A stretch of 64,000 bases of DNA from Planctomycetota bacterium (GTDB lineage: Bacteria > Planctomycetota > PUPC01 > DSUN01): the NCBI GenBank assembly GCA_035527715.1, contig DATKZY010000144.1, positions 4,444 through 68,443 on the forward strand. Reading direction: 5' to 3'. Made by a program: the position numbers and the translations under genes. The notes under the pieces are model-generated. The model worked only from the letters and a program-made list of their open reading frames with translations, ran no database searches and had not been told where the DNA came from. Shown here piece after piece: positions 7,820 to 39,155 of the stretch (within the stretch, counting starts at the first letter, position 1; each line of letters starts with the position of its first letter).

Positions 7820-9001
7820 TCAAGGGGAGGGGGAGGCCCGGCGCCGCCGGCGGCGGGCCAGTGCGGCCAGGCCAGCCGCCACGAGCAGGGCCGTGGCCGG
7901 CTCGGGGGTGTAGTAGGCGCCCAGGACAGCTTCCGCCAGCTTGTTCTGCGGCGTGTAGGCCGTCGGATCGCTGTCCCCGCTCGGGTACGTGTTCCAGTTC
8001 CACCAGTAGTAGCCATCGAGCCACGAGCAGTCTATCGTCGCCGTGAAGGTAGCCGCATAACAGTCCGCCTGCTCCTGCTGATCCTCGGTCCCTACGATGG
8101 AGGAGTCGTATGGCCACCGGTTAGCGCCGTTGACGCTGCGGTAGCCGATTTCGGTGAACAGCACGTCGTCGGGGTCCTCGGGGGGCAGCGAGAAGAGCCA
8201 GGCTTCGATGGCATTGGCGCGGCCGTTCCAGGCCGTGACCAACTGGTCAAGGGTCGGATCGTCCACGCCGGTCAGCGGAAAATAGGCGTCAATCCCGATA
8301 TAGTCCAGGTCGTCCCACCAGCCGATCGTCTGGTAGTCGTCCCAGTTCGCCGCGTAGGTGAGCCAGCCGGAAGGGAAGTTGGTGCGGGCAAGGGCGATGG
8401 TGCTGCGCCACTGGGCCTCGTTCCACTGGGCGAGCTTGTACTCGCAGCCGATGCAGAAGGCGTCCACCCCCACGCCCGGGAGTGCCGCCCACGTCGTCCA
8501 GCGGTCTATGAACGCCTTGTAGCCATCGCCCGGGACGACACCGAACCAGGCGTCGTCCCCTGGGATGTCGCCGCGCCAGCCGCCGGCCGCCACGTCCACG
8601 ATCGGCTTCAGGAGCACCTTGATGCCGCGGTCGTGAAACTCCTGCACGGCGATCTGCGCGGAGGCCATGGTGGTGCTGTAGTCGGGCCACGGCGCCGTGT
8701 AGTCGGGCGCGATCATCGTCGCGGTAGGGTTGGCCTGGAACTCGAACACGTTCAGGGCCACCCACTGCACGTCGTCCGCCTGCATGTTGGTGACGGATTG
8801 CTTGAACGCGGCATAGACCGCGGGGTTCGTCAGGTCGTTGCCCCAGGGAGTGTACGACATGCCCTGCTGGAGGGGCATGGCGGCGGCCGAGCCGCCCAGC
8901 GACAGCACGAGCGAGCCGAGGAAGGTGGGCACAAGCGTCCGGGTGGCGATCACACTCCATCCCCTACACAACGGCCGGTCACTCCCCCCGCCGTCAGCCA
9001 T
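7820..9001 (-). CDS. Clan GH-A (GH5/GH26/GH113-like) glycoside hydrolase with C-terminal PEP-CTERM sorting signal
   Basis: Acid/base WNE and nucleophile FTEIGY motifs typical of (beta/alpha)8 clan GH-A enzymes. C-terminus ...TPEPATALLVAAGLAALARRRRRRASPSP is PEP followed by a TM helix and an Arg-rich tail. N-terminal signal peptide. Start could be ATG 9001 or the internal GTG at 8951-8953. Confidence 0.6.
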   Translation of the reverse strand: MADGGGSDRPLCRGWSVIATRTLVPTFLGSLVLSLGGSAAAMPLQQGMSYTPWGNDLTNPAVYAAFKQSVTNMQADDVQWVALNVFEFQANPTATMIAPDYTAPWPDYSTTMASAQIAVQEFHDRGIKVLLKPIVDVAAGGWRGDIPGDDAWFGVVPGDGYKAFIDRWTTWAALPGVGVDAFCIGCEYKLAQWNEAQWRSTIALARTNFPSGWLTYAANWDDYQTIGWWDDLDYIGIDAYFPLTGVDDPTLDQLVTAWNGRANAIEAWLFSLPPEDPDDVLFTEIGYRSVNGANRWPYDSSIVGTEDQQEQADCYAATFTATIDCSWLDGYYWWNWNTYPSGDSDPTAYTPQNKLAEAVLGAYYTPEPATALLVAAGLAALARRRRRRASPSP

Positions 9002-10017: not shown

Positions 10018-12573
10018 ATGCCGACGAAGACCAACCCGAGCTGGCCCGTCCTCAAGAGCTATGGCCAGGCGCACCTGGCGCGGATTGCCCTGCCCCTCGG
10101 CGGCATCGGGACGGGGACGGTTTCGCTCGGCGGGCGCGGCGACCTGCGCGACTGGGAGATCGTCAACCGTCCCGCCAAGGGCTTCTCCCCCCGCAACACC
10201 TTCTTCGCCCTCTGGACCCAACAAGCAGGAGAACCGCGCTCTTCCTCTTCTCCTGTCACGCGTCACGCGTCACGCGTCACGCGCTGTCTTGAGGGCATCC
10301 TCCCGCCCGAGACCTACGAGGGCGCGAGGGGCGCCACGGCCCCCAACCACGGCCTGCCCCGCTTCCGCCACTGCTCGTTCCACGCCGCCTATCCGTTCGG
10401 CCAGGTGCTGCTGGCCGACCCCGACGTGCCGCTCGACGTGCGTATCGAGGCCTTCAACCCCCTTATTCCAGGCGATGCCGACCGCAGCGGCCTGCCCGTG
10501 GCCATCCTGCGCTTCGTCCTCACCAACCGCACGAAGCGAGCTGTGGACGCCGCCGTGTGCGGCAGCCTCCAGAACTTCATCGGCTCCGACGGCTCCAGCG
10601 GCAAGCCCTCAAAGAACGTCAACGCCTTCCGCAAGGGGCCACGGCTCCAGGGCATCTTCATGAGTTCCGAGGGCGTGGACCCCGCCGCCGAGCAGTGGGG
10701 CACCATCGCCTTGGCCACCACAGCCAGGACCGGCGTCACGCGCCGCACCGCCTGGGCCAAGCGCAGCTGGGGCGACTCGCTGCTCGATTTCTGGGACGAC
10801 TTTTCCGCCGACGGCACGCTCGACGACCGCGACGCCGAGGGCGCCGACGGCCCGACCGCCTCGCTCGCTGTCCGACTCCGCGTCCCGGCCCGCGGCACGC
10901 GCGCCGTCAGCTTCCTCCTCGCCTGGCACTTCCCGAATCGCATGACCTGGACTCCTGCAGAGGATGCGTGTTGCGAGGCGAACCGCGTGAGCAACTACTA
11001 CGCGACGCAGTTCACGGACGCCTGGGCCGCCGCCTCCAGGGCCGCTGTCGCGCTCCCGCGCCTCGAGGCCGACACGCTCCACTTCGTCCGGGCCTTCTGC
11101 GACAGCGACCTGCCCCCCGCCGTCAAGGAGGCCGCGCTCTTCAACCTCTCGACCCTGCGCTCCCAGACCAGCTTCCGCACCGAGGACGGCCGCTTCTTCG
11201 GCTTCGAGGGCTGCCACGACAAGAGCGGCTGCTGCCACGGCTCGTGCACCCACGTGTGGAACTACGAGCACGCCACCGCCTTCCTCTTTGGCTCCCTCGC
11301 CCGCTCGATGCGCGCGACCGAGTTCCTCCTCGCCACCGACGACACGGGCCACATGGCCTTCCGCGTCAATCTGCCCCTCTCGCGCGCCCAGGAGTTCAAG
11401 CACGCCGCCGCCGACGGCCAACTCGGCTGCCTGATGAAGGCATTCCGCGACTGGCAGCTCAGCGGCGACGACGCCTGGCTCCGCCGCCTCTGGCCCAAGA
11501 TTCGCAAGGCCATGGAGTTCTGCTGGATTCCCGGCGGCTGGGACGCCGATCGCGACGGCGTGATGGAGGGCTGCCAGCACAACACGATGGACGTCGAGTA
11601 CTACGGCCCGAACCCGCAGATGGGCGCGTGGTATCTCGGCGCGTTGCGCGCCGTCGAGGAAATGGCCCGCCACCTGGGCGAGGATGAATTCGCGACGACC
11701 TGCCGCGACCTCTTCGAGCGCGGCCACCGCTGGATGGACGAGCACCTGTTCAACGGCGAATACTACGAGCACGAGATTCGCCCGCCGAGGTCCGCCAACG
11801 CCATTGCCCCCGGCCTGCGCCTGAGCATGGGCGCGAAGGACCTCTCCGAGCCCGACCTCCAGCTCGGCGCCGGCTGCCTCGTGGACCAGCTCGTCGGCCA
11901 ATACACCGCCCACGTCCTCGGCCTCGGCTACCTCCTCGACCCCAGGCACGTCAAGGCCACCCACCGCGCCATCATGAAGCACAACTTCAGGCGGGGCCTC
12001 TACGGCCACTTCAACCATCTTCGCACCTTCGCCCTCAACGACGAGTCGGCCTTGCTCATGGCCACCTATCCCCGGGGCCGCCGCCCGAAGCGGCCGTTCC
12101 CCTACTACAACGAGGTCATGACCGGCTTCGAGTATTGCGCCGCCGTCGGCATGCTCTACGAGGGCCAGACCGCTGCCGGCCTCAAATGCATCGAGGCCAT
12201 CCGCCGCCGCTACGACGGCCTGAGGCGCAACCCCTTCGATGAAGCCGAGTGCGGCCACCACTACGCCCGAGCCATGGCCAGTTGGTCGGCGGTCCTCGCC
12301 CTCACCGGCTTCCACTACTCCGCCGTCACGAGAACGATGACATTCGCCGCGGCCAGGAAGCCCACCACCTGGTTCTGGTCCACCGGCTCTGCCTGGGGCA
12401 CCGTCCGCCAGAGGCCGAGCCGGAGGGGCACCCACGTGGAAATCGCCGTGTTACACGGCAGATTGGAGCTCGGCAAGGTTCTGTTGGAGGGCCTCGGCTC
12501 CGTCGAGAGCGGCAAGTCAATCGCCATTGCGGCGGGAGAGACTGCCAGGTTCCTCGCGGGGCGTGACGCATGA
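10018..12573 (+). CDS. GH116-family glycoside hydrolase (GBA2-type beta-glucosidase/glucosylceramidase-like)
   Basis: N-terminal ARIALPLGGIGTGTVSLGGRGDLRDWEI matches the GH116 N-domain signature. 851 aa is the right size. GGAGG 6 nt upstream of ATG. Confidence 0.75.
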   Translation: MPTKTNPSWPVLKSYGQAHLARIALPLGGIGTGTVSLGGRGDLRDWEIVNRPAKGFSPRNTFFALWTQQAGEPRSSSSPVTRHASRVTRCLEGILPPETYEGARGATAPNHGLPRFRHCSFHAAYPFGQVLLADPDVPLDVRIEAFNPLIPGDADRSGLPVAILRFVLTNRTKRAVDAAVCGSLQNFIGSDGSSGKPSKNVNAFRKGPRLQGIFMSSEGVDPAAEQWGTIALATTARTGVTRRTAWAKRSWGDSLLDFWDDFSADGTLDDRDAEGADGPTASLAVRLRVPARGTRAVSFLLAWHFPNRMTWTPAEDACCEANRVSNYYATQFTDAWAAASRAAVALPRLEADTLHFVRAFCDSDLPPAVKEAALFNLSTLRSQTSFRTEDGRFFGFEGCHDKSGCCHGSCTHVWNYEHATAFLFGSLARSMRATEFLLATDDTGHMAFRVNLPLSRAQEFKHAAADGQLGCLMKAFRDWQLSGDDAWLRRLWPKIRKAMEFCWIPGGWDADRDGVMEGCQHNTMDVEYYGPNPQMGAWYLGALRAVEEMARHLGEDEFATTCRDLFERGHRWMDEHLFNGEYYEHEIRPPRSANAIAPGLRLSMGAKDLSEPDLQLGAGCLVDQLVGQYTAHVLGLGYLLDPRHVKATHRAIMKHNFRRGLYGHFNHLRTFALNDESALLMATYPRGRRPKRPFPYYNEVMTGFEYCAAVGMLYEGQTAAGLKCIEAIRRRYDGLRRNPFDEAECGHHYARAMASWSAVLALTGFHYSAVTRTMTFAAARKPTTWFWSTGSAWGTVRQRPSRRGTHVEIAVLHGRLELGKVLLEGLGSVESGKSIAIAAGETARFLAGRDA
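10255..10282 (+). repeat. Perfect 7-bp tandem repeat (GTCACGC)x4 inside the 5' coding region of the GH116 gene
   Basis: gtcacgcgtcacgcgtcacgcgtcacgc read directly. Encodes ...VTRHASRVTR... in a Ser-rich stretch. Confidence 0.7.
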
Positions 12574-12661
12574 AGGAGACTGCTCGTCCCGTGCAGCGTT
12601 CCCGCGTGCCACGGATCACGTGACACGCATCGAGGAGCATCGAAGTCAGGAGGAGACTCTG

Positions 12662-13804
12662 GTGACAGTCTTTGTCATGATCCCTTACAGGGACACGTTC
12701 AGGGAGACCTATCGCACTGCGATTGAGCCAGTGCTGAAGGCCAATGGCCTCGAACCAGTCGTCGGGGAGAATCATGTCACGCCGGGTCCTGTGGATGAGC
12801 AGATCGTCGCCTCCATACGAGACGCCAGGTTCTGCGTGGCGGACCTCACGGGTCCCAACCCGAACGTGGTCTACGAAGTCGCGCTGGCGCACTCATTGCG
12901 CAAGCCTGTGATTCTGCTGACCCGGGACGATCTGGGCGACATTCCATTCGACGTTCGCCACCACCGGGCTCTGAAGTATGCCCCGACGGCGGAGGGACAC
13001 GCGCGGTTGGCGCAGATGTTGCACGAAGCGGTCAAGGCGATCCTTGCCTCAGAGCAATCGGTAGTCCACCTCCTGAAGAGGATGCTGGCCCCTTCCAGCA
13101 TCGAGACAAGTAGAGGGGGGTTCGTGGTAGTGGCTAGTCCACTTTCGTATCGAGCCGCGTTCCGAAGAGGGGGCGGGTGGAGGAAGAGACCTCTCACAAC
13201 TTTCTCGGACAACGTGGGGATCCGCGGGCTGATGCAGTCATTCGGTCTGATATACGGCCTGGAAAGGCTTCCCGAACTCCTGAACCCGGACGACTTCGAC
13301 GACGAGGTGCTGGAGAAGCCGGAGAACCGGGTGAACATGTACGCGATAGGGAGTCCAAAGGCCAATCGGTGGACGGGGATTCTCATGGAGGGCTTCTTCG
13401 CGAACCGCAAGCCCAAGTGGGAGTTCAAGCCCGACCCGGAGAGCCGGGAGATAATGAACCCAAGAGTGATCGTGCGGCGCGACGGTCACGAGTTCAGACC
13501 CCACGTGATTGGGGATCCCCACATCCTGAAGTGGGATTTCGGCCTGGTGATCCGGGGGCCTCATCCCATGGATGCCAGCTTCATGTTCATGGTCCTTGCC
13601 GGCAGGAGCTCGCTCGGAACGGAAGCCGCATGCCTGGCCGTCACGGACCCCGTGTGTCTGAAGAAGCTCGACGAACGGCTGCGCTTCGAGGGCATCAACG
13701 CGGACGACCACAGGGAAGCGTTCTGCACCATCGTCAGCATCAAGGCCCCGGACATGAAGACCGACAAGGACGAATTCAGGGTATGCGATGTCATACGGTA
13801 CTGA
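12662..13804 (+). CDS. Two-domain protein in a lower-GC islet: N-terminal TIR-like/nucleoside-2-deoxyribosyltransferase-like flavodoxin-fold domain plus a C-terminal domain with a possible SLOG/LOG-like GxGTxE-type motif; candidate nucleotide-signalling or defence protein
   Basis: GTG start 12662 sits 7-8 nt after CAGGAGGAG (the ATG at 12677 is 23 nt away). N-domain: TVFVMIPYRD...ADLTGPNPNVVYEVALAHSLRKPVILLTRDDLGDIPFDVRHHRALKY, matching the TIR-like/NDT-like pattern NVxFELGxAxxxGKPVIxL...PSDL. C-domain: VVVASP...YAIGSPKAN...MFMVLAGRSSLGTEAA. GC visibly lower (~57-60%) than the flanks, with rare AGT/AGA/AGG codons. Confidence 0.6.
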   Translation: MTVFVMIPYRDTFRETYRTAIEPVLKANGLEPVVGENHVTPGPVDEQIVASIRDARFCVADLTGPNPNVVYEVALAHSLRKPVILLTRDDLGDIPFDVRHHRALKYAPTAEGHARLAQMLHEAVKAILASEQSVVHLLKRMLAPSSIETSRGGFVVVASPLSYRAAFRRGGGWRKRPLTTFSDNVGIRGLMQSFGLIYGLERLPELLNPDDFDDEVLEKPENRVNMYAIGSPKANRWTGILMEGFFANRKPKWEFKPDPESREIMNPRVIVRRDGHEFRPHVIGDPHILKWDFGLVIRGPHPMDASFMFMVLAGRSSLGTEAACLAVTDPVCLKKLDERLRFEGINADDHREAFCTIVSIKAPDMKTDKDEFRVCDVIRY

Positions 13805-13969
13805 TGACCTGTGAGCGGCGGCGCGTCGCCATCGTTGCTTGCGCGGGGACACCCCGCGTCGCCCGGCGCGCCGCAGTTGACAAAGCCCCTCAGCCGTGAC
13901 AGGATATCTGGCGTGCATGCTCCGCGACTGGCCAGACAAGGGAAGGCCCTCAGACAGAAAGGGAAGACG

Positions 13970-14620
13970 ATGAGGAAGCTCGTGTGGTGCGTCGTGTGGG
14001 CGCTGTGTGCGGCGGCGATTGCGGGCGAAGAGGCGAAGCCGACCGAAGGGCTGAAGCCGCCCGAGGGCGCCGTCGTGCTCTTCGACGGCAAGGACGCATC
14101 GCAGTGGGACAAGGCCAAGGTCACGCCCGAGGGCTATCTCGAGGCCGGGGCGATCACGAAGGAGAAGTTCGCCGACTGCCAACTCCACCTGGAGTTCAAC
14201 ATCCAGCCCGACCCGACGGGGAAGAAAGTGTCGGGCAACAGCGGAGTCTACATCCAGAACCGCTACGAAATCCAGATACTGAACTCGGCGGGCGGCAATC
14301 CCTCGAAGGGCGGATGCGGGGCGATCTACCAGTTCAAGCCGGCCGACACGAATCAGGCGAAGCCGCCGGGCGAGTGGCAGACCTACGATATCACGTTCCG
14401 CGCCCCGCGTTGGGACGACCAGAAGAAGAAGGCCGAGAACGCCCGCATCAGCGTCGTGCACAACGGCGTGAGGATCCACGACAACGTGGAGGTGCCGAAC
14501 AAGACGGGCCATGGCAAGCCCGAAGGCCCCGAGCCCGGGCCGCTCTGCCTCCAGGACCACCGTAACAAGGTTTGCTTCCGCAACATCTGGCTGCTGCCGC
14601 TGAAGGCCGAGACGAAGTGA
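13970..14620 (+). CDS. DUF1080-type secreted protein (3-keto-disaccharide hydrolase-like, LamG/jelly-roll fold)
   Basis: Signal peptide MRKLVWCVVWALCAAAIAGEE. Conserved blocks VLFDGKD...W, HLEFNIQPD, NSGVYIQNRYEIQIL, ICFRNIWLLPL are typical of DUF1080/PF06439. Confidence 0.7.
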   Translation: MRKLVWCVVWALCAAAIAGEEAKPTEGLKPPEGAVVLFDGKDASQWDKAKVTPEGYLEAGAITKEKFADCQLHLEFNIQPDPTGKKVSGNSGVYIQNRYEIQILNSAGGNPSKGGCGAIYQFKPADTNQAKPPGEWQTYDITFRAPRWDDQKKKAENARISVVHNGVRIHDNVEVPNKTGHGKPEGPEPGPLCLQDHRNKVCFRNIWLLPLKAETK

Positions 14621-14778: not shown

Positions 14779-16086
14779 ATGAGCAACAGAGGAATGGGCC
14801 TGCACGTCCTCGCGGGACTTGCGCTGTTCGCCGCGCCGGGGTGCATGATCTGGCTTCGCCCCGAGTGGGCGGAACTGAAGAAGTCCACGCAGCCGCCGAT
14901 CCTGCGGCTGGGAGAAATCAAAGAGACCTTCACGGGAACCTGGGTGGCCGGGGGCACGCAGACGAGCCTCAGGAACCACCTGCTGAGCGCCTTTGCGCGG
15001 CCCGAGGCCGCTGCCCTGTTCTCCGGCGACCCGGACAGCCTGACGCTGAACCTCGATATTGTCTCGGACCACGAGGACGATATGCCGCGCATGTTCGTTC
15101 TGGGCTGCCTCAGCATTGGCACCCTGGGCCTGCTCCCGCTCACCTACCATTCGGAATGGAACTTGCAGTGCAGCGTGACCGTCAAAGGCCCCGACGGCAC
15201 GGTCGTGGCGAAGTACCCGGTCCAGACGACGGGCAGCTACGACATCTGGGCGCTGCCGCCCACGATGTTCACCTTGTTTGCCGGATCGTTCCGGGCGCCG
15301 GGCGACGCCGGGCGCATCTTCCGCAGGATGGTCCATCGCGTCGTCGCCGACGTCAGTAAGGCGGTGGACACCGACTATCCGCGCCTGGCCAGGTGGAAGG
15401 AGGCGCGGGCACTCGTCGCGGCGCAAGCGCCGCTGAACGCGGCCATCGGCGACACAGCGTACTGGGTGGTCTACAACATCTCGACGCCTCAGCCCTCGGG
15501 CGCGGGAGCCGCGGCCTCGGCGCGCGAGTACGCCCTCGAGCTGCACCGCACCCGCCCGCAGCCGGGGGCGGCACCGCTCCGCCGCCTCGTCGTCGGCACG
15601 CGAAGCGGGGCAGTGAAGACCGCCTGGCAATGGCGCGACCCGAAGAGCGTGGTCTTCTTCGCCCACGGCCGCCTGTGGCACCCCGAGTGGAAGACGGGCC
15701 AGCCGGGGGACAAGCTGGTCGCCGTCGGGTTCCGCGAGCGCGCGGTCACCGCCAAGGACCTCTTCGCGCCCGACGGCCTGCCTGCCCTCGCGGCGACGGA
15801 GTGGAACGACCTCGTGGTGGCCTGGAAGAACCGCGACCTGGCCACCCTCCTGCGCGAGGGACGCACCGCCGACCTGGGCGAGCATGTGGCGCAGATCGAG
15901 CAGTTGGCCCTGCGAGCCAACGAGTCGGCGGACCGCGAGAACAACAAGGCGGAGGAACTGAAGGCGGCGGGCAAGCCGGGCAGCGAACTCCACCGCGAGG
16001 CGGCGCTGGCCTACCGCGCCCGCATCGAGGTCCTCAAGCCCATCCTCGCCGCCATCAAGGCCGAGGTGGCCAATCGCCAACGATGA
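14779..16086 (+). CDS. Lipoprotein, uncharacterized family; paralog 1 of a 4-gene tandem array
   Basis: AAGGAG 10 nt upstream of ATG. Lipobox FAAPGCM. 435 aa. Shares conserved blocks with the next three genes: PPILRLGEIKE, DIVSDHEDD, YDIWALPPTMFT, DYPRLA, YWVVYNI, EYALELHR.RP, WQWRDP, RLWHPEWK, and a helical C-terminus ...ILKPILAAIKAEVANRQR. Confidence 0.8.
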   Translation: MSNRGMGLHVLAGLALFAAPGCMIWLRPEWAELKKSTQPPILRLGEIKETFTGTWVAGGTQTSLRNHLLSAFARPEAAALFSGDPDSLTLNLDIVSDHEDDMPRMFVLGCLSIGTLGLLPLTYHSEWNLQCSVTVKGPDGTVVAKYPVQTTGSYDIWALPPTMFTLFAGSFRAPGDAGRIFRRMVHRVVADVSKAVDTDYPRLARWKEARALVAAQAPLNAAIGDTAYWVVYNISTPQPSGAGAAASAREYALELHRTRPQPGAAPLRRLVVGTRSGAVKTAWQWRDPKSVVFFAHGRLWHPEWKTGQPGDKLVAVGFRERAVTAKDLFAPDGLPALAATEWNDLVVAWKNRDLATLLREGRTADLGEHVAQIEQLALRANESADRENNKAEELKAAGKPGSELHREAALAYRARIEVLKPILAAIKAEVANRQR

Positions 16087-16160
16087 GGCAGACCCTGCCC
16101 GGGCAGGCGGCGCGCCGCGGGCCGAGACCAGGTAGCTGGGAGGGGACGGAGCCTACTGCG

Positions 16161-17462
16161 ATGCGCACGAACACAACGGTTTCTCACTTGGCCTGCCTCG
16201 TCCTGATGGCCGGGGGGGCGGGATGCATGGTCCGCCTCAGCCCGAGGCGCGTCGAGTTGAAGCGCTCGGCCCGGCCTCCCATCTACCGCCTGGGCAAGAT
16301 CACCGAAGACCTCACGGGCACCTGGGCCGCCGCCGCGAAGACCAACGACTGGGGGGGCAAGAACCCCGTGGCCGCCTTGCTCCGGCAGTCCGAAGCCGCC
16401 TCGCTGTTCAGCAGCGACCCCAACAACCTGACGATGGACATTCATCTTGTGTCGAGCCACGAGGACGACGCCCCGCGCCTGGCCTTCCTGGCGCTCATGA
16501 GCATCTGTACGCTGGGCATCATGCCCCTCCACTACCGCTCGGAATGGACCTCGGACGTGACGGTGACCATTCGGACGCCGGACGGGGCAACCGTGGACGA
16601 GCATGCGCTCCGGGCCAAGGGGGCCTACGACATCTGGGCGATGCCGCTCACCATGTTCACCCTGGGCACCGCGGCCCTGCGCGGGCCGCTGGACGGGCAG
16701 GAGGTGCGCAACCGCATGACGCGGAAGGCCGCGGCCGACCTGATGGAGGCGGCCGAGCGCGACTACGACCGCCTGGCGCGCTGGCGCCAGGCCTGGGCCG
16801 TCATCGCCGACCAGCAGCCGATCAGCGTGCAGGCCGGGGCCGCCACGTACTGGGCGACCTACAACATCGCCGCAGCCACGGAGGCGGCTGGCCGCCGACG
16901 CGAGTATGTGCTGGAGATTCACCAGAGCCGGCCGCGGCGGGGCGCGGCGCCCTGGCGCAGCGTGGTGCTGGGCGACGCGAGGCTGGCCCCCGACGCGCCC
17001 TGGCGATGGCGCGACCCGCGCGACGTGGTCCTCTACGCGGACCAACGCCTCTGGCACCCCGAGTGGAAGGTCGAGGGGCTGCAGGCCCAGCTCGCCGCCG
17101 TCCAGTTCAAGGAGCGGCCCGTCACGGCGAAGGAGCTGTTCGCGCCCGACGGCCTCAGCGACCTGTCGGCGACCGACTGGAACGACCTCCTGGTCGCCTG
17201 GAAGAACAGGGAACTCGTCGCCCTCCTCCGCGAGGCGTCCACGGCGGACCTCACGGGCCACGTCAGCCAGATCGAGCAGCTCGTGCTGCGAGCCAACGAG
17301 TCGGCCGAGCGCGAGAAGGACGAGGCGCAGAAGCTCATCGCGGCAGGCAAGCCGGGCGGCGAACTCCACGCCGAGGCCGCGCGGGCCTACGCCGCCCGCA
17401 TCGAGATACTCAAGCCCATCCTCGCCGCCATCAAGGCCGAGGTGGCCAATCGCCAGCGGTGA
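16161..17462 (+). CDS. Lipoprotein, uncharacterized family; paralog 2
   Basis: ATG 16161. Lipobox MAGGAGCM. Same conserved blocks. The track ORF 15393..17462 is N-over-extended across the intergenic region. Confidence 0.8.
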   Translation: MRTNTTVSHLACLVLMAGGAGCMVRLSPRRVELKRSARPPIYRLGKITEDLTGTWAAAAKTNDWGGKNPVAALLRQSEAASLFSSDPNNLTMDIHLVSSHEDDAPRLAFLALMSICTLGIMPLHYRSEWTSDVTVTIRTPDGATVDEHALRAKGAYDIWAMPLTMFTLGTAALRGPLDGQEVRNRMTRKAAADLMEAAERDYDRLARWRQAWAVIADQQPISVQAGAATYWATYNIAAATEAAGRRREYVLEIHQSRPRRGAAPWRSVVLGDARLAPDAPWRWRDPRDVVLYADQRLWHPEWKVEGLQAQLAAVQFKERPVTAKELFAPDGLSDLSATDWNDLLVAWKNRELVALLREASTADLTGHVSQIEQLVLRANESAEREKDEAQKLIAAGKPGGELHAEAARAYAARIEILKPILAAIKAEVANRQR

Positions 17463-17537
17463 GGGGGCCTATGGCCGGGCAGGCCCCGCCGCAGGCTAAG
17501 TGGAGGAGGCGAAATTGCTCAACTGAGGAGCACGCGC

Positions 17538-18836
17538 ATGAACACGATGAGGAGAGCCCGGCACGTTCTCTGCCTCGTCGCCCTGCTGGGGCCAACGGGC
17601 TGCATGATCACCCTCGGCCCGCGGAGGGCCGAGCTGGACAGGTCGCCCAACCCGCCCGTGCTCCGGCTCGGCGAGATCAAGGAGACCCTCACAGGATCGT
17701 GGGTGACGCAGGGGGGAGCCGGCTCCCCGGTCATCACGGGCAAGCTGGCGCGGCTGTTCTCTCAGTCCGGCGCGGCCTCGCTGTTCTCCTCGGAGCCAGG
17801 GAATCTGGCCCTCAACATCGAGATCGTGGTGGACCACGAGGCGGACGACCCGAAGCTGGTCAAGCTGGCGTTCGTGAGCATCGCCACGCTTGGGCTCGTC
17901 CCGCTCAACGGGAACGCGGAATGGCACGCGCGGTGCCAGGTGCAGGTGGCTGCCGAGGACGGGGTCGCGATCGCCAAGTACCCGATCCATGTGACTGGCT
18001 CCTACAGCATCTGGGCATTCCCTCCGACCATGATCGCGTTCATGGGCGCCGCTGGCCGGGCGTGGGCAGACGCGAGGGCGATCTTCGAGCGGATGGCCAA
18101 CAACGTGGCGGCCGAGATCATGAAGGCCGTGGCGGCCGACTACCCGCGTCTCGCCGAGGCCAAGCGGGCCCGCGCGGGAGTCGCCGAGCAGCAGCCACTG
18201 AGCATCCGGGCCGGCGGCACGACGCTCTGGGTCACCTACAGCGTCGCGCAGTCGGGCGCCGCGGGCCAGGAGTATGTGCTGGAGCTCCACCGGAGTCGGC
18301 CGCCCCGCGGTGCGGCGCCGCTGCGCAAGCTGGCCGTCGGGTCGCGGGCCGGGGTCGCCGGCCCCGAGACGCCCTGGCAATGGCGTGACCCGACGAGCGT
18401 TGTGTTCCAGGCCGAGGGGCGCCTGTGGCATCTCGAATGGAAGGTCGAGGGGCCACTGCACAAGCTGGCCGCCGTCGAGGCCCGCGAGCGCAAGCTCACC
18501 GCGCGCGAGCTTCTGCGCCACGACTCGTTCCCCGATCTGCCCCCGGGGGACCAGAATAGCCTGCTGCTGGCATGGAAGACCCGCGACTTGCTCACGCTCC
18601 TGCGCGAGGCCAGCACGTCGGACCTGGAGGACCACATCGTGGGGATCGAGGAGATGGTCCTGCGAGCCAACGAGATGGCCGAGCGCGAGAAGGACGAGGC
18701 GCAGAAGCTCATCGCTGCGGGCAAGCCGGGCAGCGAAATCCACGCCGAGGCCGCGCGAGCTTACCGCGCATGCATCGAGATCCTCAAGCCCATCCTCGCC
18801 GCCATCAAGGCCGAGGTGGCCAACCGCGCGAAGTAG
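17538..18836 (+). CDS. Lipoprotein, uncharacterized family; paralog 3
   Basis: GAGGAG 7 nt upstream of ATG 17538. Lipobox LLGPTGCM. Same conserved blocks. Confidence 0.8.
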   Translation: MNTMRRARHVLCLVALLGPTGCMITLGPRRAELDRSPNPPVLRLGEIKETLTGSWVTQGGAGSPVITGKLARLFSQSGAASLFSSEPGNLALNIEIVVDHEADDPKLVKLAFVSIATLGLVPLNGNAEWHARCQVQVAAEDGVAIAKYPIHVTGSYSIWAFPPTMIAFMGAAGRAWADARAIFERMANNVAAEIMKAVAADYPRLAEAKRARAGVAEQQPLSIRAGGTTLWVTYSVAQSGAAGQEYVLELHRSRPPRGAAPLRKLAVGSRAGVAGPETPWQWRDPTSVVFQAEGRLWHLEWKVEGPLHKLAAVEARERKLTARELLRHDSFPDLPPGDQNSLLLAWKTRDLLTLLREASTSDLEDHIVGIEEMVLRANEMAEREKDEAQKLIAAGKPGSEIHAEAARAYRACIEILKPILAAIKAEVANRAK

Positions 18837-18934
18837 TTTCTGCAGGGGAAGCCCGAATCGTGGCGACGAGCGGCGGCGCTTGTCGCTCGACCGCCACAAG
18901 CCAGCCGCTTGCGGCCACACAGGAGGGCGTGAAC

Positions 18935-20212
18935 ATGACAAGATCGGCGGGGTGGCCGTTGTGCATGGGGCTGATCCTCTCTGCGTCAGGGTGCGTGGCC
19001 ACGTTTCGCCCAAAGTGGGCGGAGCTGGAGAGGCCGACCCAGCCGCCCATCCTGCGACTCGGGGAGGTGAAGGAGTCCTTCACCGGAACCTGGGTGAGCG
19101 CCGGCAAACAGAGAAGCATCAGGAACGTGCTCTTGAGCGCGCTTGCGCAGCCCCAGGCCGCTGCCTTGTTCTCCGACGACCCGGGCAATCTGACCCTCAA
19201 CCTGGACATCGTGTTGGACGGCGAGGACGACGACCCCCAGTCGTTCGAGATCTGCGGCAAGTGCGTGCTCACGCTCGGGCTAATCCCCCTGACATGGCAC
19301 ACCGAGCACAACCTGCGGTGCGACGTCTCCATCAAGAGCCCCGACGACTTCGTGGTTGCGAAGTACCGAACCCATGTGACAGGCTCAAACGACGTCCTCT
19401 TCCTGCCTCCCACGATGGTCACGATGCTCGGGGGCCCGGTCGGGGGAAGGATTGCCATCGCGAGCATCTTCCGGAGGATGGCCCGCAGTGTCGTTGCCGA
19501 CATCATGAAGAGGGTGACGACCGACTATCCGCGGCTGGCCGAGGTGAAGCAGTCGAGAGCCGTGGCTGCGGGGCAGGCGCCGCTGAGCGTGGTGATTGGG
19601 GATACGCCGTACTGGGTGGTCTACAATATCTCGGCGGCGGGGCCGAAGTGGGAGTACGCCCTGGAGCTTCACCGCAGCCGTCCGCAACCGGGGACGGCGC
19701 CGCTGCGAAGTCTGCTCGTCGGCACGCGAAGCGGGGAAGCCGCCTCGGCCTGGCAGTGGCGCGAGCCGAAGAGCGTCATCGTGTTCGCTCAGGGGCGCCT
19801 GTGGTATCCCGCATGGCGGACCGAGGGGCCGGCCGAGAAGCTGGCCGCCGTCGAGTTCAAGGAGCGAGCTGTGCCCGCGAAGGAGCTCTTTCAGCCTGGC
19901 TCGCTGGGCGGCCTGTCGGCCAGCGAATGGAACGACCTCCTGGTCGCCTGGAAGAACAGGGAACTCGTCGCCCTCCTTCGCGAGGCGTCCACGGCGGACC
20001 TCACGGGCCACGTCAGCCAGATCGAGCAGCTCGTGCTGCGGGCCAACGAGATGGCCGAGCGGGAGAAGGACGAAGCGCAGAAGCTCATCGCGGCAGGCAA
20101 GCCGGGCAGCGAACTCCACGCCGAGGCCGCGCGGGCCTACGCCGCCCGCATCGAGATCCTCAAGCCCGTCCTCGCCGCGATCAAGGCCGAGGTGGCCAAC
20201 CGCCAGAAGTGA
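18935..20212 (+). CDS. Lipoprotein, uncharacterized family; paralog 4
   Basis: AGGAGGG 7 nt upstream of ATG 18935. Lipobox LSASGCV. Same conserved blocks. The track ORF 18572..20212 is over-extended. Confidence 0.8.
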   Translation: MTRSAGWPLCMGLILSASGCVATFRPKWAELERPTQPPILRLGEVKESFTGTWVSAGKQRSIRNVLLSALAQPQAAALFSDDPGNLTLNLDIVLDGEDDDPQSFEICGKCVLTLGLIPLTWHTEHNLRCDVSIKSPDDFVVAKYRTHVTGSNDVLFLPPTMVTMLGGPVGGRIAIASIFRRMARSVVADIMKRVTTDYPRLAEVKQSRAVAAGQAPLSVVIGDTPYWVVYNISAAGPKWEYALELHRSRPQPGTAPLRSLLVGTRSGEAASAWQWREPKSVIVFAQGRLWYPAWRTEGPAEKLAAVEFKERAVPAKELFQPGSLGGLSASEWNDLLVAWKNRELVALLREASTADLTGHVSQIEQLVLRANEMAEREKDEAQKLIAAGKPGSELHAEAARAYAARIEILKPVLAAIKAEVANRQK

Positions 20213-36736: not shown

Positions 36737-37214
36737 ACAGGGCGTTCAAAGGCAAGAGCGGCTACGGGACCAGGCCATACCTGTGCCTGTCACAGACGGC
36801 TTGTGTGTTCGCCTCCGGCCCACGCCTGGGCGACCCAGGACGGGTGCGATGACATGTCGAGCCATAATCTATGCCACCGTAGTGACTTGCATGTCAGCGG
36901 TGTGACAGGCACCGTGCCCCGACAGGCCCCGTGCCCCGCCGTGCCCCGTGCCGAGGAGGCCAAGAAGCGGTTTGAGAGGCTGAAGAAGCGCTTCGACGAG
37001 GCCGGCAAGCCTCCCGCCGCCCCCTGATGCCGCAAGGACGCCCGGTTCGTCGGTTCGGCGGCTCGGTGCCTCACACCCATGAGTTGGTTGTGGGCTCCGC
37101 AGGAGGCGCGGAGCCGCGTGGGGCGGGCTTGGCCATGTTGGCCCCAGCGCGAGCCGTACGGCAGTCTTGCAGCGGCTCCGTGGTTCCCTGCGGACACAGG
37201 CCGCGTCTCTCCGC

Positions 37215-37242
37215 TTGCATTCTGTGGGGGGGGCGCTACAAT
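37215..37242 (+). promoter_or_regulatory. Candidate sigma70-like promoter (TTGCAT, 16-nt spacer, TACAAT) about 65 nt upstream of the proline-racemase-family gene
   Basis: ttgcat-tctgtgggggggcgc-tacaat read directly. Promoter consensus for this lineage is uncertain. Confidence 0.3.
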
Positions 37243-37308
37243 CATCCTCGAAAGGGCTGCCCAACGGGGCTACCCACGAGTCAAATGGGAAATCTCGGGC
37301 GATAAGTG

Positions 37309-38352
37309 ATGAAGACATCCAAAGTGGTACATGTGGTGAGTTGCCACGCGGAAGGTGAAGTTGGCGATGTGATCGTCGGCGGAGTAGCGCCACCGCCCGG
37401 TGACACGATTTGGGAGCAGCGTTGTTTCATCGAGAAGGATGATCGTCTGCGGCGCTTTGTGCTCAACGAGCCGCGCGGGGGCGTCTTCCGGCACGTAAAC
37501 CTCTTGGTGCCGCCGAGGGATCCCCGTGCGCAGGTCGGCTGGATCATCATGGAGCCGGCTGATACTCCGCCGATGTCGGGGTCGAACTCGATCTGCGTGG
37601 CGACCGTGGTGCTCGACACCGGAATCGTTCCGATGACCGAGCCGGAAACAGAGTTGCTGATGGAAGCGCCGGGCGGTTTGGTCAAAGCGCGTGCACAATG
37701 TCGCAATGGCAAGGCGGAGCGAATCACGATCACCAACGTGCCTTCGTTTGCCGACAAGCTCGCGGCGCCGCTGGAAGTGGAAGGGCTCGGCACCCTCATT
37801 GTTGATACAGCCTATGGCGGCGACAGCTTCGTCATCGTCGATGCGAAAGCGTTGGGATTTGAAATCGTGCCGGACGAAGCCATCGAGCTTGTCGCGACCG
37901 GCATGAAGATCACGGCCGCGGCCAACGAGCAGCTCGGATTTCAGCACCCCGTGCATGCCGAGTGGAACCACATCTCGTTTTGTCAGTTTGCCGGCCCGCT
38001 TGCGGAGGAGAATGGCGTGCTGGTGGGGCCGAACGCCGTGTGCGTGCGCCCCGGCAAGATCGACCGGTCGCCAACCGGCACGGGTTGTTCGGCGCGCATG
38101 GCGGTTCTGCATGCGCAGGGACGCATGCAGGTCGGGGGCCGCTATCGGGCGCGCTCGATCATTGGCTCCGAGTTCGAATGTGGCATCGAGTCGTTGACTT
38201 CGCTGGGCAAGATGGATGCGATCGTGCCGACTGTTTCGGGGCGGGCGTGGGTCACGGGAACGCATCAACTCATGCTCGACCCGGACGACCCGTGGCCCGA
38301 AGGCTATCGGATCGCCGACACGTGGCCGGTCCTAGGAAGGAGAAGAACATGA
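37309..38352 (+). CDS. Proline racemase / 4-hydroxyproline epimerase family protein
   Basis: [10 protein letters not shown] and [14 protein letters not shown] are the two catalytic-Cys motifs of the PF05544 family. 347 aa. Lower GC than the surroundings. Confidence 0.75.
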
Positions 38353-39122
38353 TTGCAGGAGACGGAACTGCAGCCGTACGCCTGCTTCTCTCCATGGTGA
38401 CGACGTGGGTCGCCCTATCTGCCGGGGCGTACGCGGCCGACGCTAAATCGGATGCCAGGAAAGAGGCGCCTCAAAACGCCCACTTCGATCCCGTCATCAA
38501 GAACATCGAGGGCTGGACCGTTCACGTCGACCCGAAGTTGCTCGAAGGCGAGCACGCCGAGGGAGGGGCCCGGGCGCTGACGATGCTCGCCAATCACCTG
38601 CAACGCATCGCAATCCTGATGCCGACAGACCGCCTCGAAGAGCTGCGGAAAGTGGGGATCTGGATCGAGTACGACCATCCCGATATCAATGCGGAACCGG
38701 GGCCGTACCACCCCAGCGTTGACTGGCTCACCGCGCGAGGCTACGATGCCCGGCTGGCGAAAAAGGTGCATATCACGCGGGCGGCGTCGCTTCTGGAGCG
38801 ACACCATATGATCAAGCACCCGGCCGTCATCCTGCACGAGTTGGCCCACGCTTACCACGACCAGGTCCTCGGCTTCGATGAGCCGCGCATCAAGGCCGCG
38901 TACGACAAAGCGATGAAGGCCGGCATCTACGACAAAGTGCTGCTGTACACCGGCCAGAAGGTCCGCCATTATGCGGCGACCAATCACAAGGAGTACTTCG
39001 CCGAAGGGACCGAGGCGTACTTCTACCGCAACGACTTCTACCCGTTCGTGCGGGCAGAACTCAAGGAACACGATCCCGTGCTGCATGATCTGCTGGAAGA
39101 ACTCTGGGGCCCGCTGAAGTAA
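38349..39122 (+). CDS. Secreted HEXXH zinc-metallopeptidase-like protein
   Basis: ATGA overlap with the upstream gene; GGAAGGAG RBS. Signal peptide. [13 protein letters not shown]. Confidence 0.6.
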
Positions 39123-39155
39123 CCGCACGCCCCCATTCGCAAGGAGAACCCAACC

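What the first reader, a model, noticed from the sequence alone, without database searches (positions are those of the whole stretch)
12574..13969. Lower-GC single-gene islet encoding a TIR-like/NDT-like N-domain fused to a possible SLOG/LOG-like domain: candidate nucleotide-signalling or anti-phage protein
Gene 12662-13804 sits alone between a GH116 gene and a DUF1080 gene, with 88-bp and 165-bp non-coding flanks. Its GC content is visibly lower (~57-60% versus ~70%) and it uses AGT/AGA/AGG/TTA-type codons that are rare elsewhere in the window, which suggests horizontal acquisition. The N-domain (TVFVMIPYRD...ADLTGPNPNVVYEVALAHSLRKPVILLTRDDLGDIPFDVRHHRALKY) closely follows the TIR-like/nucleoside-2-deoxyribosyltransferase-like pattern (NVxFELGxAxGxLGxxRVxxL...PSDLxGxxY) known from COG4271-type proteins in conflict systems. 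The C-domain has Rossmann-like strands (VVVASP, YAIGSPKAN) and MFMVLAGRSSLGTEAA, which resembles the PGGxGTxEE motif of the LOG/SLOG superfamily. A TIR-like plus SLOG-like fusion would fit the nucleotide-sensor/NADase effector logic of CBASS/Thoeris-type defence systems. No cyclase, CD-NTase or other partner is present in the window, so this would be a stand-alone or novel variant.
Basis: partly seen in the sequence, partly recalled or inferred. Interest (0 to 1): 0.65.

Follow-up and report, generated by a model that had tools for sequence, protein, structure and literature searches.

The report
Solo NDT/TIR-like enzyme, unknown partner domain

Summary
The gene runs from 12662 (GTG, strong Shine-Dalgarno) to 13804 and encodes 380 aa. 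It lies between a GH116 gene and a 3-keto-disaccharide hydrolase (DUF1080) gene. It is the lowest-GC gene-sized stretch of the window (60.2% against 68.2%; GC3 0.78 against about 0.90). Two syntenic relatives carry a different gene in the same slot.

Residues 1-128 form an NDT/DNPH1/TIR-superfamily fold with an invariant Glu72 at the catalytic position. Its best family match is a PADLOC CBASS 'TIR' effector model.

Residues 150-380 form a confidently modelled alpha/beta domain with no Pfam, NCBIfam, PADLOC, PDB-sequence or viral-structure match. The only PDB fold hits are poor. The SLOG/LOG reading failed every test I could run.

This C-domain defines about 385 protein clusters, and every member scanned had a TIR/NDT-type domain (NDT-like, TIR_2 or DUF4062) in front of it. 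The family occurs in only 26 of 185,579 species genomes, all MAGs from many phyla. It has no conserved neighbour and mostly housekeeping surroundings.

Best reading (about 0.45): a self-contained NAD+/nucleotide N-glycosidase controlled by a new regulatory or sensor domain, probably defensive. It would be a new variant of a known kind.

The parts
12574..12661 (+). Upstream intergenic spacer (88 bp), with the Shine-Dalgarno sequence AGGAGGAG at 12648-12655
   Evidence: Sequence read. No sigma-70-type promoter match was found, which says little for this phylum.
12662..13804 (+). Protein-coding gene, 380 aa, GTG start, stop codon at 13802-13804
   Evidence: ORF. The start is fixed by the homologue alignment, the SD sequence and the public gene call. 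There are 149 homologues at E<=1e-3.
12662..13045 (+). N-domain (residues 1-128): NDT/DNPH1/TIR-superfamily fold, the predicted N-glycosidase (NADase or nucleotidase) module
   Evidence: PF05014 at E 0.035 (below Pfam's cut-off). PADLOC PDLC00733 'Effector TIR' at 1.8e-8, matched by 47 of 50 family members. Foldseek finds NDT, DNPH1, SPARTA TIR and SARM1 TIR at E about 1e-5. A family profile against PDB sequences finds Rcl/DNPH1 at E 0.0023.
12875..12877 (+). Codon of Glu72 (GAA), the predicted catalytic glutamate, in the motif ADLTGPNPNVVYEVALAH
   Evidence: Invariant in 50 of 50 sequences. It aligns with the Glu of GVGYELG in Rcl/DNPH1.
13046..13108 (+). Linker (residues 129-149), including a conserved helix (LLR.MLVP.S)
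   Evidence: AF2 secondary structure and the alignment.
13109..13801 (+). C-domain (residues 150-380): an alpha/beta domain of an undescribed family, the predicted regulatory or ligand-binding module
   Evidence: AF2 pLDDT 93.9 and pTM 0.92. No Pfam, NCBIfam or PADLOC hit. No convincing PDB or BFVD neighbour. There are 385 clusters in 1.84 billion representatives.
13199..13228 (+). C-domain motif 1, T-F-S-D-N-V-G-I-R-G (T180, D183, G186, R188, G189)
   Evidence: D183 is invariant, also in the distant subfamily. T180, G186 and G189 are conserved in at least 90% of sequences.
13346..13366 (+). C-domain motif 2, I-G-S-P-K-A-N (S231, K233, N235), a loop after a beta-strand
   Evidence: K233 and N235 are invariant in the close family and conserved in at least 90% when distant members are included.
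13535..13567 (+). C-domain motif 3, D-F-G-L-V-I-R-G-P-H-P (D292, G294, R298, P300)
   Evidence: D292, G294 and R298 are invariant in both alignments.
13598..13630 (+).
   Evidence: G314 and G319 are invariant; A313, T320 and A322 are conserved in at least 90%. The only PDB sequence echo is the GGGHAGTEAA dinucleotide-binding loop of GidA at E 1.6, which is not significant.
13805..13969 (+). Downstream intergenic spacer (165 bp)
   Evidence: Sequence read. No terminator-like site and no flanking repeat that would mark an insertion.

Best explanation
The gene encodes a self-contained, horizontally spread two-domain protein. The N-terminal domain is an NDT/TIR-superfamily N-glycosidase with Glu72 as the catalytic residue. 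When active, it most likely cleaves the N-glycosidic bond of NAD(P)+ or of a nucleotide. The C-terminal 230 residues form a conserved alpha/beta domain of a family that has not been described. I infer that this domain keeps the enzyme off and switches it on. The likely trigger is binding of a conserved, phosphate-bearing small molecule that appears in stressed or infected cells, possibly coupled to oligomerisation. No partner enzyme would be needed to make the signal. The most likely biological role is single-gene abortive-infection defence (or a closely related conflict function) through depletion of NAD+ or nucleotides.

Shown here: the fold and catalytic residue of the N-domain, the novelty and conservation of the C-domain, the consistent pairing of the two domain types in every member scanned, the solo gene organisation, and the horizontal acquisition.

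Inferred: the substrate, the ligand, the activation mechanism and the defence role.
For: 1. N-domain identity.
- Foldseek finds NDT, DNPH1, SPARTA TIR and SARM1 TIR at E about 1e-5.
- A family profile against the PDB hits Rcl/DNPH1 at E 0.0023, with Glu72 on the catalytic Glu of GVGYELG.
- Glu72 is invariant in 50 of 50 sequences.
- The PADLOC CBASS effector model 'TIR' matches at 1.8e-8 and in 47 of 50 members.

2. Domain swapping. In sequences carrying the same C-domain, the NDT-like domain is replaced by a canonical TIR_2 (P0095, P0098; best 7.9e-24), preceded by an extra TIR_2 (P0191), or preceded by DUF4062 (P0122). This is the modular effector-plus-regulator pattern of immune proteins.

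3. Domain pairing. Of the 150 listed hits among 385 C-domain clusters, nearly all full-length ones are 380-420 aa with the domain at about 140-400. Every N-terminal partner that was scanned belongs to the TIR/NDT superfamily.

4. C-domain conservation. The C-domain is better conserved than the N-domain (45.6% against 38.4% mean pairwise identity; C>N in 92% of pairs). Its invariant polar and charged residues (D183, K233, N235, D292, R298, T320) sit in loops after beta-strands. This fits a fixed small-molecule pocket better than a fast-evolving sensor of phage proteins.

5. No conserved neighbour in 30 loci.

6. Mobility.
- The family occurs in 26 of 185,579 species genomes, spread over many phyla.
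- The gene has lower GC than its flanks in 23 of 26 loci.
- It is absent from the syntenic slot of the two closest relatives found.

7. Relatives of the N-domain. Its homologues on plasmids sit in defence islands, next to a type II restriction-modification system or among TIR, caspase and DUF262 genes.

8. Precedents in the literature.
- The NDT-type N-glycosidase effector of Retron-Eco1 hydrolyses NAD(P)+ (PMC12673091).
- Single-gene TIR-like NADase plus auxiliary-domain systems exist: Swarozyc, Evangelion and Vulcan (bioRxiv 10.64898/2026.05.01.722283, 10.64898/2026.06.25.731849, 10.64898/2026.09.04.749371).
- Metis effectors are activated by an infection-derived mononucleotide, with no cyclase involved (bioRxiv 10.1101/2025.11.05.686725).
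Against: - There is no experimental evidence for any member, and every member comes from an uncultured organism.
- Defence-island association is weak. Six contexts with gene calls plus the window show only housekeeping neighbours. Among 135 neighbours in 28 loci, only a few match restriction-modification, MADS or Uma2 models. I ran no matched control.
- The N-domain misses Pfam's gathering score for PF05014 (14.7 against 28.8 bits).
- The substrate cannot be told from sequence. NDT, DNPH1, MilB/BcmB-type and TIR enzymes act on different nucleotides.
- A ligand-binding role for the C-domain rests only on its conservation pattern. It could equally be catalytic or purely an oligomerisation module.
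- No C-domain homologue occurs on any plasmid or phage record searched.
Confidence: 0.45

Rival explanations
1. The protein is an effector of a CBASS, Thoeris or Pycsar-type signalling system. Its C-domain is a SLOG/LOG-like sensor of a nucleotide second messenger made by a cyclase or TIR protein encoded elsewhere.
For: - The N-domain's best family hit is a CBASS 'TIR' effector model.
- The motif AGRSSLGTEAA recalls PGGxGTxEE.
- The conserved polar pocket residues would suit a nucleotide ligand.
Against: - No LOG or SLOG Pfam hit in 50 members.
- No LOG, ThsA, DprA, CARF or SAVED chain among the Foldseek PDB hits.
- hhalign against the LOG enzyme PpnN gives 0.1%.
- The topology has four consecutive strands without helices.
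- No signal-generating enzyme, or any other conserved partner, is present in 30 loci. A horizontally transferred single gene cannot rely on a cyclase elsewhere in the genome.
Confidence: 0.07
2. The protein is a non-immune stress or metabolic enzyme. It would be a nucleotide or NAD+ N-glycosidase whose activity is set allosterically by a cellular metabolite or alarmone bound to the C-domain, by analogy with the LOG-type nucleosidase PpnN. It would act in nucleotide-pool control or dormancy rather than phage defence.
For: - The neighbourhoods are mostly housekeeping.
- The C-domain is strongly conserved, more than the N-domain, as expected for a sensor of a universal metabolite.
- The closest solved sequence relatives of the N-domain are DNPH1/Rcl nucleotide hydrolases.
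Against: - The distribution is extremely sparse and patchy: 26 of 185,579 species, scattered over many phyla.
- The composition is atypical in 23 of 26 loci.
- The gene is absent from the closest syntenic relatives found.
- The N-domain can be replaced by canonical TIR or joined by DUF4062, both immune NADase modules.
- The gene is not linked to nucleotide-salvage genes.
Confidence: 0.2
3. The roles of the two domains are reversed. The TIR/NDT domain would make a signal molecule (an ADP-ribose derivative) or sense infection. The conserved C-domain would be the executing enzyme, making this a fused Thoeris-like sensor and effector.
For: - The C-domain is the more conserved half and carries invariant Asp, Lys and Arg residues that could form an active site.
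- From general knowledge, bacterial TIR proteins of Thoeris generate signals rather than kill.
Against: - The C-domain resembles no known hydrolase, nuclease, protease or pore-forming domain.
- It has no transmembrane segment (sequence).
- In the characterised single-gene TIR-like systems, the TIR-like domain is the NADase effector (bioRxiv 10.64898/2026.05.01.722283, 10.64898/2026.09.04.749371).
Confidence: 0.1
4. The protein is a toxin used against other cells, or the toxin half of a toxin-antitoxin pair.
For: From general knowledge, NAD+ glycohydrolase and N-glycosidase domains occur in polymorphic toxins. The gene is also mobile.
Against: - There is no signal peptide, no secretion-system domain or neighbour, and no conserved small adjacent immunity or antitoxin gene in 30 loci.
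- In one locus (L001) a 232-aa gene starts 2 bases after the homologue's stop, but this gene does not recur elsewhere.
Confidence: 0.05

Closest known systems
Nucleoside 2-deoxyribosyltransferase / DNPH1 (Rcl) family (Pfam PF05014, clan Nribosyltransf)
   Same: The N-domain has the same fold (Foldseek E about 1e-5). The motif A-D-L...N-V-x-Y-E-V-A...K-P-V aligns with the catalytic Glu of Rcl/DNPH1. 32 of 50 family members give a weak PF05014 hit.
   Different: The score is below Pfam's cut-off (14.7 against 28.8 bits). The domain is fused to a 230-aa domain that these enzymes lack. Distribution is rare, patchy and horizontal rather than that of a housekeeping gene.
CBASS/Pycsar TIR-like effectors (PADLOC PDLC00733 'Effector TIR'; Pfam PF10137 CAP12-PCTIR_TIR, formerly COG4271-type)
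   Same: This is the best family-level match for the N-domain (1.8e-8 for the window protein, up to 6.7e-13 in the family, 47 of 50 members). Distant members of the C-domain family hit PF10137.
   Different: In the PADLOC model the TIR-like part lies at the C-terminus (profile positions 261-374 of 388), and nothing matches its first 260 positions. There is no CD-NTase or cyclase nearby. The sensor part is unrelated.
Single-gene DUF4062/NIR TIR-like NADase systems: Swarozyc, Evangelion, Vulcan
   Same: The logic is the same: one gene with an N-terminal TIR-like NADase carrying a catalytic Glu, plus a C-terminal auxiliary region needed for activation, spread by horizontal transfer (bioRxiv 10.64898/2026.05.01.722283, 10.64898/2026.06.25.731849, 10.64898/2026.09.04.749371). 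One relative (P0122) even carries a DUF4062 domain in front of the same C-domain.
   Different: The window protein's N-domain does not match PF13271, and the family profile does not align with P0122's DUF4062 domain (hhalign 0.1%). Its auxiliary domain is strongly conserved rather than diversified. The published systems sense phage proteins or replication intermediates and lie in defence islands or on plasmids; this family mostly does not.
Retron-Eco1 (Ec86) N-glycosidase effector
   Same: It is an NDT-type domain used as an immune effector that hydrolyses NAD(P)+ (PMC12673091). This shows that NDT-like, not only canonical TIR, domains can be NADases in defence.
   Different: That effector needs a reverse transcriptase and msDNA encoded next to it. 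No reverse transcriptase gene lies next to this gene, and no partner gene is conserved across the homologous loci. It was not among the top 50 Foldseek hits.
Thoeris ThsA (SIR2-SLOG)
   Different: The effector domain is NDT/TIR-like, not SIR2. The C-domain failed every SLOG test. No ThsB-type partner is present.
Metis MisA/MisC and Vesta VstA (effectors activated, or proposed to be activated, by infection-derived mononucleotides)
   Same: They are precedents for an effector with a built-in ligand-binding domain and no dedicated signal synthase (bioRxiv 10.1101/2025.11.05.686725, 10.64898/2026.09.04.749371). VstA is described as a NIR domain plus an uncharacterised C-terminal domain.
   Different: MisA is a calcineurin-like phosphoesterase and MisC a membrane protein, both unrelated in sequence. 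Each is paired with a phosphatase gene, and no phosphatase partner is conserved here. I could not test homology of the VstA C-domain to this C-domain because no sequence was available.

Membership tests
TIR / NDT (Nribosyltransf-STIR) superfamily, N-domain | Flavodoxin-like alpha/beta fold shared by NDT, DNPH1 and TIR domains | tested here: met
   AF2 pLDDT 91. Foldseek PDB hits to NDT, DNPH1, SPARTA TIR and SARM1 TIR at E 1e-5 to 1e-4, probability 1.0.
TIR / NDT (Nribosyltransf-STIR) superfamily, N-domain | Conserved catalytic glutamate at the equivalent position | tested here: met
   Glu72 is invariant in 50 of 50 sequences. It aligns with the Glu of GVGYELG in Rcl/DNPH1.
Pfam PF05014 Nuc_deoxyrib_tr (true NDT/DNPH1 enzymes) | Score above Pfam's gathering threshold (28.8 bits) | tested here: not met
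   14.7 bits, E 0.035. The best family member reaches only E 3.4e-6.
Pfam PF13271 DUF4062 / NIR domain (Swarozyc, Evangelion, Vulcan, Vesta) | N-terminal domain matches the DUF4062 model | tested here: not met
   No PF13271 hit at E<=10 for the window protein. hhalign of the family profile against the DUF4062 domain of P0122 gives 0.1%. Only P0122 carries DUF4062, as an extra domain.
SLOG / LOG superfamily, C-domain | Sequence match to LOG or SLOG family models | tested here: not met
   No LOG or SLOG Pfam family among the hits of 50 members at E<=1. hhalign against E. coli PpnN gives probability 0.1%, and the PGGVGTAEE motif is not aligned.
SLOG / LOG superfamily, C-domain | Rossmannoid beta-alpha-beta fold superposable on LOG, ThsA-SLOG or DprA structures | tested here: not met
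CARF / SAVED sensor domains, C-domain | Structural or sequence match to CARF or SAVED | tested here: not met
   No CARF or SAVED chain among the Foldseek hits. The only SAVED-related PADLOC hit is in one TIR-type member, at E 3.6e-6.
CBASS / Pycsar / Thoeris operons | Adjacent signal-generating enzyme (CD-NTase, cyclase or ThsB TIR) | tested here: not met
   All-against-all comparison of ORFs from 30 loci found no gene family shared between loci other than the gene itself. The window neighbours are GH116 and DUF1080.
Retron type II (NDT effector) | Adjacent reverse transcriptase and msr/msd | tested here: not met
   No reverse transcriptase flanks the gene, and none is conserved in related loci. 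I ran no RNA search for msr/msd.
Anti-phage defence genes in general | Enrichment next to known defence genes | tested here: inconclusive
   A few of 135 neighbours in 28 loci match restriction-modification, MADS, Uma2 or Csa3 models. Most neighbours are housekeeping. No matched control was run.
Anti-phage defence genes in general | Protection against phage, and infection-dependent NAD+/nucleotide depletion that needs the catalytic Glu | not testable with these tools
   This needs experiments.

The most novel reading that the evidence does not exclude
The 230-residue C-domain is a new class of immune sensor. On this reading it is used only to control TIR/NDT-type N-glycosidases, and it directly binds a conserved small molecule produced during infection, with no dedicated signal synthase. 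The family would then be a new single-gene defence system, so far seen only in uncultured environmental bacteria of many phyla.
Probability: 0.3. Interest if true: 0.7.

Novelty: new variant of a known kind. Interest (0 to 1): 0.45.

Why it matters
If the best reading is right, this family adds a new regulatory or sensor fold to the set of domains that control TIR-like NADases. These enzymes are shared between bacterial, plant and animal immunity. It would also be another case of immunity triggered without a dedicated second-messenger synthase.

The C-domain is well suited to ligand discovery, because it is highly conserved and predicted with high confidence. It accompanied a TIR/NDT-type domain in every full-length member scanned, so it could also serve as a marker for finding such effectors in metagenomes.

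If the reading is wrong, the protein is still an uncharacterised, horizontally mobile nucleotide or NAD+ glycosidase with an unknown allosteric domain.

Tried and rejected
- Viral structures. Foldseek against BFVD found nothing at E<0.2.
- PDB sequences. A C-domain profile found only the GGGHAGTEAA loop of GidA at E 1.6, partly driven by a His-tag. I rejected it as not significant.
- BcsB, S-layer and GH67/GH115 fold hits. I rejected them as functional leads because TM is at most 0.40 and rmsd is 8-12 A.
- A LOG gene for comparison. Motif searches through 1.19 Mb of held sequence found none. I used E. coli ppnN instead.
- Free-standing C-domain proteins. P0121 and P0123 looked like candidates. 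P0121 starts 21 bases from the end of a 1-kb contig, so it is a fragment.
- Multi-domain relatives. The contexts of P0191 and P0122 are contigs of 2-3 kb and tell nothing.
- Signs of insertion. I found no flanking direct repeats (only chance 15-16-mers), no tRNA in the window, and no promoter or terminator consensus.
- Operon partner. The 232-aa gene abutting the homologue in L001 does not recur in other loci, so I rejected it.
- TTG 12527 as the start. I rejected it because the 45-residue extension overlaps GH116 and has no counterpart in homologues.
Full report
**1. The observation**

The + strand carries an ORF that ends at 13804. The mechanical ORF starts at TTG 12527. Three lines of evidence move the real start to GTG 12662, giving 380 aa:
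- Homologues begin with M-x-x-F-V-M-I-P-Y.
- AGGAGGAG lies at 12648-12655, 6 nt upstream of 12662.
- The public gene call has the same start.

The neighbours are a GH116 glycosidase (10018-12573) and a 3-keto-disaccharide hydrolase/DUF1080 gene (13970-14620).

The composition is atypical:
- The gene has 60.2% GC against 68.2% for the window, and it is the lowest-GC 1143-bp stretch in the 64 kb.
- GC3 is 0.78, against 0.90-0.93 in five neighbouring genes.
- Its codon-adaptation index relative to the other ORFs is 0.52, fourth lowest of 35.
- AGA, ATA, TCA, AGT and AGG are 3- to 10-fold enriched.

**2. Is it an acquired islet?**

I scanned metagenome contigs with the GH116 protein and found two relatives, L034 and L035. 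They keep hisF (90% identity), GH116 (77%), DUF1080 (81-82%) and the following gene. Neither contains this gene. The slot between GH116 and DUF1080 holds an SMP-30/gluconolactonase-like ORF instead, plus one more ORF in L034. So the gene is not syntenic in the closest lineages available.

Across 26 loci with homologues from many phyla, the gene has lower GC than its flanks in 23, by 4.8 points on average. No repeats, tRNA or mobile-element genes mark the borders.

**3. The N-domain (residues 1-128)**

Family searches gave the following:
- Pfam gives only a sub-threshold PF05014 hit (E 0.035, 14.7 against 28.8 bits).
- NCBIfam gives nothing.
- PADLOC's CBASS effector model PDLC00733 ('TIR') matches at 1.8e-8, and in 47 of 50 family members.

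The AlphaFold2 model has pLDDT 91.4. Foldseek places the domain among NDT enzymes, DNPH1, SPARTA TIR-APAZ and SARM1 TIR at E about 1e-5.

A family profile hits Rcl/DNPH1 at E 0.0023. In that alignment N-V-V-Y-E-V-A lies on G-V-G-Y-E-L-G, so the invariant Glu72 lies on the catalytic glutamate.

The domain is therefore a TIR/NDT-superfamily N-glycosidase module. It is not a member of PF05014 proper or of DUF4062. tblastn finds relatives of this N-domain alone on 95 plasmids and 37 phage records. The two plasmid examples I opened lie in defence islands.

**4. The C-domain (residues 150-380)**

Modelled alone, it reaches pLDDT 93.9 and pTM 0.92. The order of elements is strand, helices, strand, helix, four consecutive strands, two helices, then a terminal beta-hairpin.

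Nothing in Pfam, NCBIfam or PADLOC matches it, in the window protein or in 50 relatives. Further searches:
- Foldseek against the PDB gives only poor hits. The best is BcsB at E 5e-4, TM 0.40, rmsd 11.8 A. No LOG, ThsA, DprA, CARF, SAVED or Macro chain is in the top 50.
- BFVD gives nothing.
- A profile search of PDB sequences gives one non-significant echo, GidA GGGHAGTEAA at E 1.6.
- hhalign against the LOG enzyme PpnN gives 0.1%.

**5. The family**

A C-domain profile searched against 1.84 billion representative proteins finds 385 clusters (E<=1e-3). Nearly all full-length hits are 380-420 aa, with the domain at about 140-400.

In the members scanned, the N-terminal partner was either NDT-like/PycTIR-like, a canonical TIR_2 (P0095, P0098), an extra TIR_2 (P0191) or an extra DUF4062 (P0122); a few gave no Pfam hit at all.

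Invariant or nearly invariant C-domain residues fall into four motifs:
- T180-x-x-D183-x-x-G-x-R-G
- S231-x-K233-x-N235
- D292-x-G294-x-x-x-R298-x-P
- A-G314-x-x-x-x-G319-T320

The C-domain is more conserved than the N-domain (45.6% against 38.4% mean pairwise identity; C>N in 92% of pairs).

**6. Distribution and context**

Only 26 of 185,579 GTDB species genomes carry a relative. All are MAGs, from Planctomycetota, Anaerolineae, Bacteroidota lineages, Acidobacteriota, Armatimonadota, Desulfobacterales and others.

An all-against-all comparison of ORFs from 30 loci found no gene family shared between loci other than the gene itself. Seven contexts with gene calls show housekeeping neighbours. 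A PADLOC and Pfam scan of 135 neighbours in 28 loci found a few defence genes (a type II restriction-modification pair, MADS components, Uma2, Csa3) among mostly metabolic genes.

**7. Interpretation**

The evidence I weigh most heavily:
- The consistent pairing of a conserved domain with interchangeable TIR/NDT-type modules.
- The invariant catalytic Glu.
- The solo, mobile, patchy gene.

Together these fit a self-contained effector-plus-regulator protein of the kind recently shown for single-gene TIR-like NADase systems (Swarozyc, Evangelion, Vulcan). NDT-type effectors are known to hydrolyse NAD(P)+ in Retron-Eco1 (PMC12673091). Metis shows that an effector can be switched on by an infection-derived mononucleotide with no cyclase involved (bioRxiv 10.1101/2025.11.05.686725).

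The strong conservation of the C-domain, and its polar residues in loops after strands, favour a fixed small-molecule ligand over recognition of a phage protein. This step is inference. The substrate, the ligand and the defence role are all untested, and the weak defence-island signal keeps a stress or metabolic role open.

**8. Verdict**

The N-domain assignment, the horizontal acquisition and the stand-alone status hold. The SLOG assignment does not.
- Novelty: a new variant of a known kind, namely a TIR-like/NDT effector with a previously undescribed companion domain.
- Interest is moderate at 0.45. It is a clean, testable candidate family, but the architecture logic already has precedents and there is no functional evidence.

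Noticed in passing
window 14779-20212 (+ strand): 14779-16086, 16161-17462, 17538-18836, 18935-20212: Four tandem paralogous genes of about 425-435 aa lie directly downstream of DUF1080. The three translations I read (14779-18836) begin with a lipoprotein-like N-terminus (signal peptide followed by Cys) and end with a shared C-terminus (ILKPILAAIKAEVANR..). None has a Pfam hit. A 44-46% identical homologue follows DUF1080 in the syntenic relatives L034 and L035.
   Followed up: partly
window about 36800-39800: This is a second lower-GC stretch (61-63%) with low codon adaptation. Judged from sequence motifs only, it holds a proline-racemase/hydroxyproline-epimerase-like ORF (37306-38352; SGSNSIC and DRSPTGTG motifs), a secreted HExxH-type ORF (ending at 39122), and an esterase-like ORF with GQSNMQG (39156-40457).
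   Followed up: partly
L034 3926-4957 and 4756-5694; L035 8630-9658: In the two syntenic relatives, the GH116-DUF1080 slot holds an SMP-30/gluconolactonase-like gene, and L034 has one further ORF. The slot therefore varies between close lineages and may be a small hotspot for gene exchange.
   Followed up: partly
L010 (Cellvibrionaceae MAG) and L011 (Chlorobium MAG): The two loci share the homologue and all flanking ORFs, although they are assigned to different phyla. Both come from the same sample series (PL25a, PL25b). This looks like a binning or contig-assignment problem, not a recent transfer.
   Followed up: no
L027 6599-7757 and L028 6421-7627: The homologue is split into two ORFs in these two MAGs. 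It is either a pseudogene or an indel sequencing error.
   Followed up: no
L001 11151-11849: A 232-aa gene with no Pfam hit starts 2 bases after the stop codon of the homologue in a 4.6-Mb Planctomycetota contig. It does not recur next to other family members.
   Followed up: partly
window 7820-9001 (- strand): A GH113 glycoside hydrolase carries a C-terminal PEP-CTERM sorting motif. It is part of a run of glycoside-hydrolase genes (GH123, GH113, GH116) around the finding.
   Followed up: no
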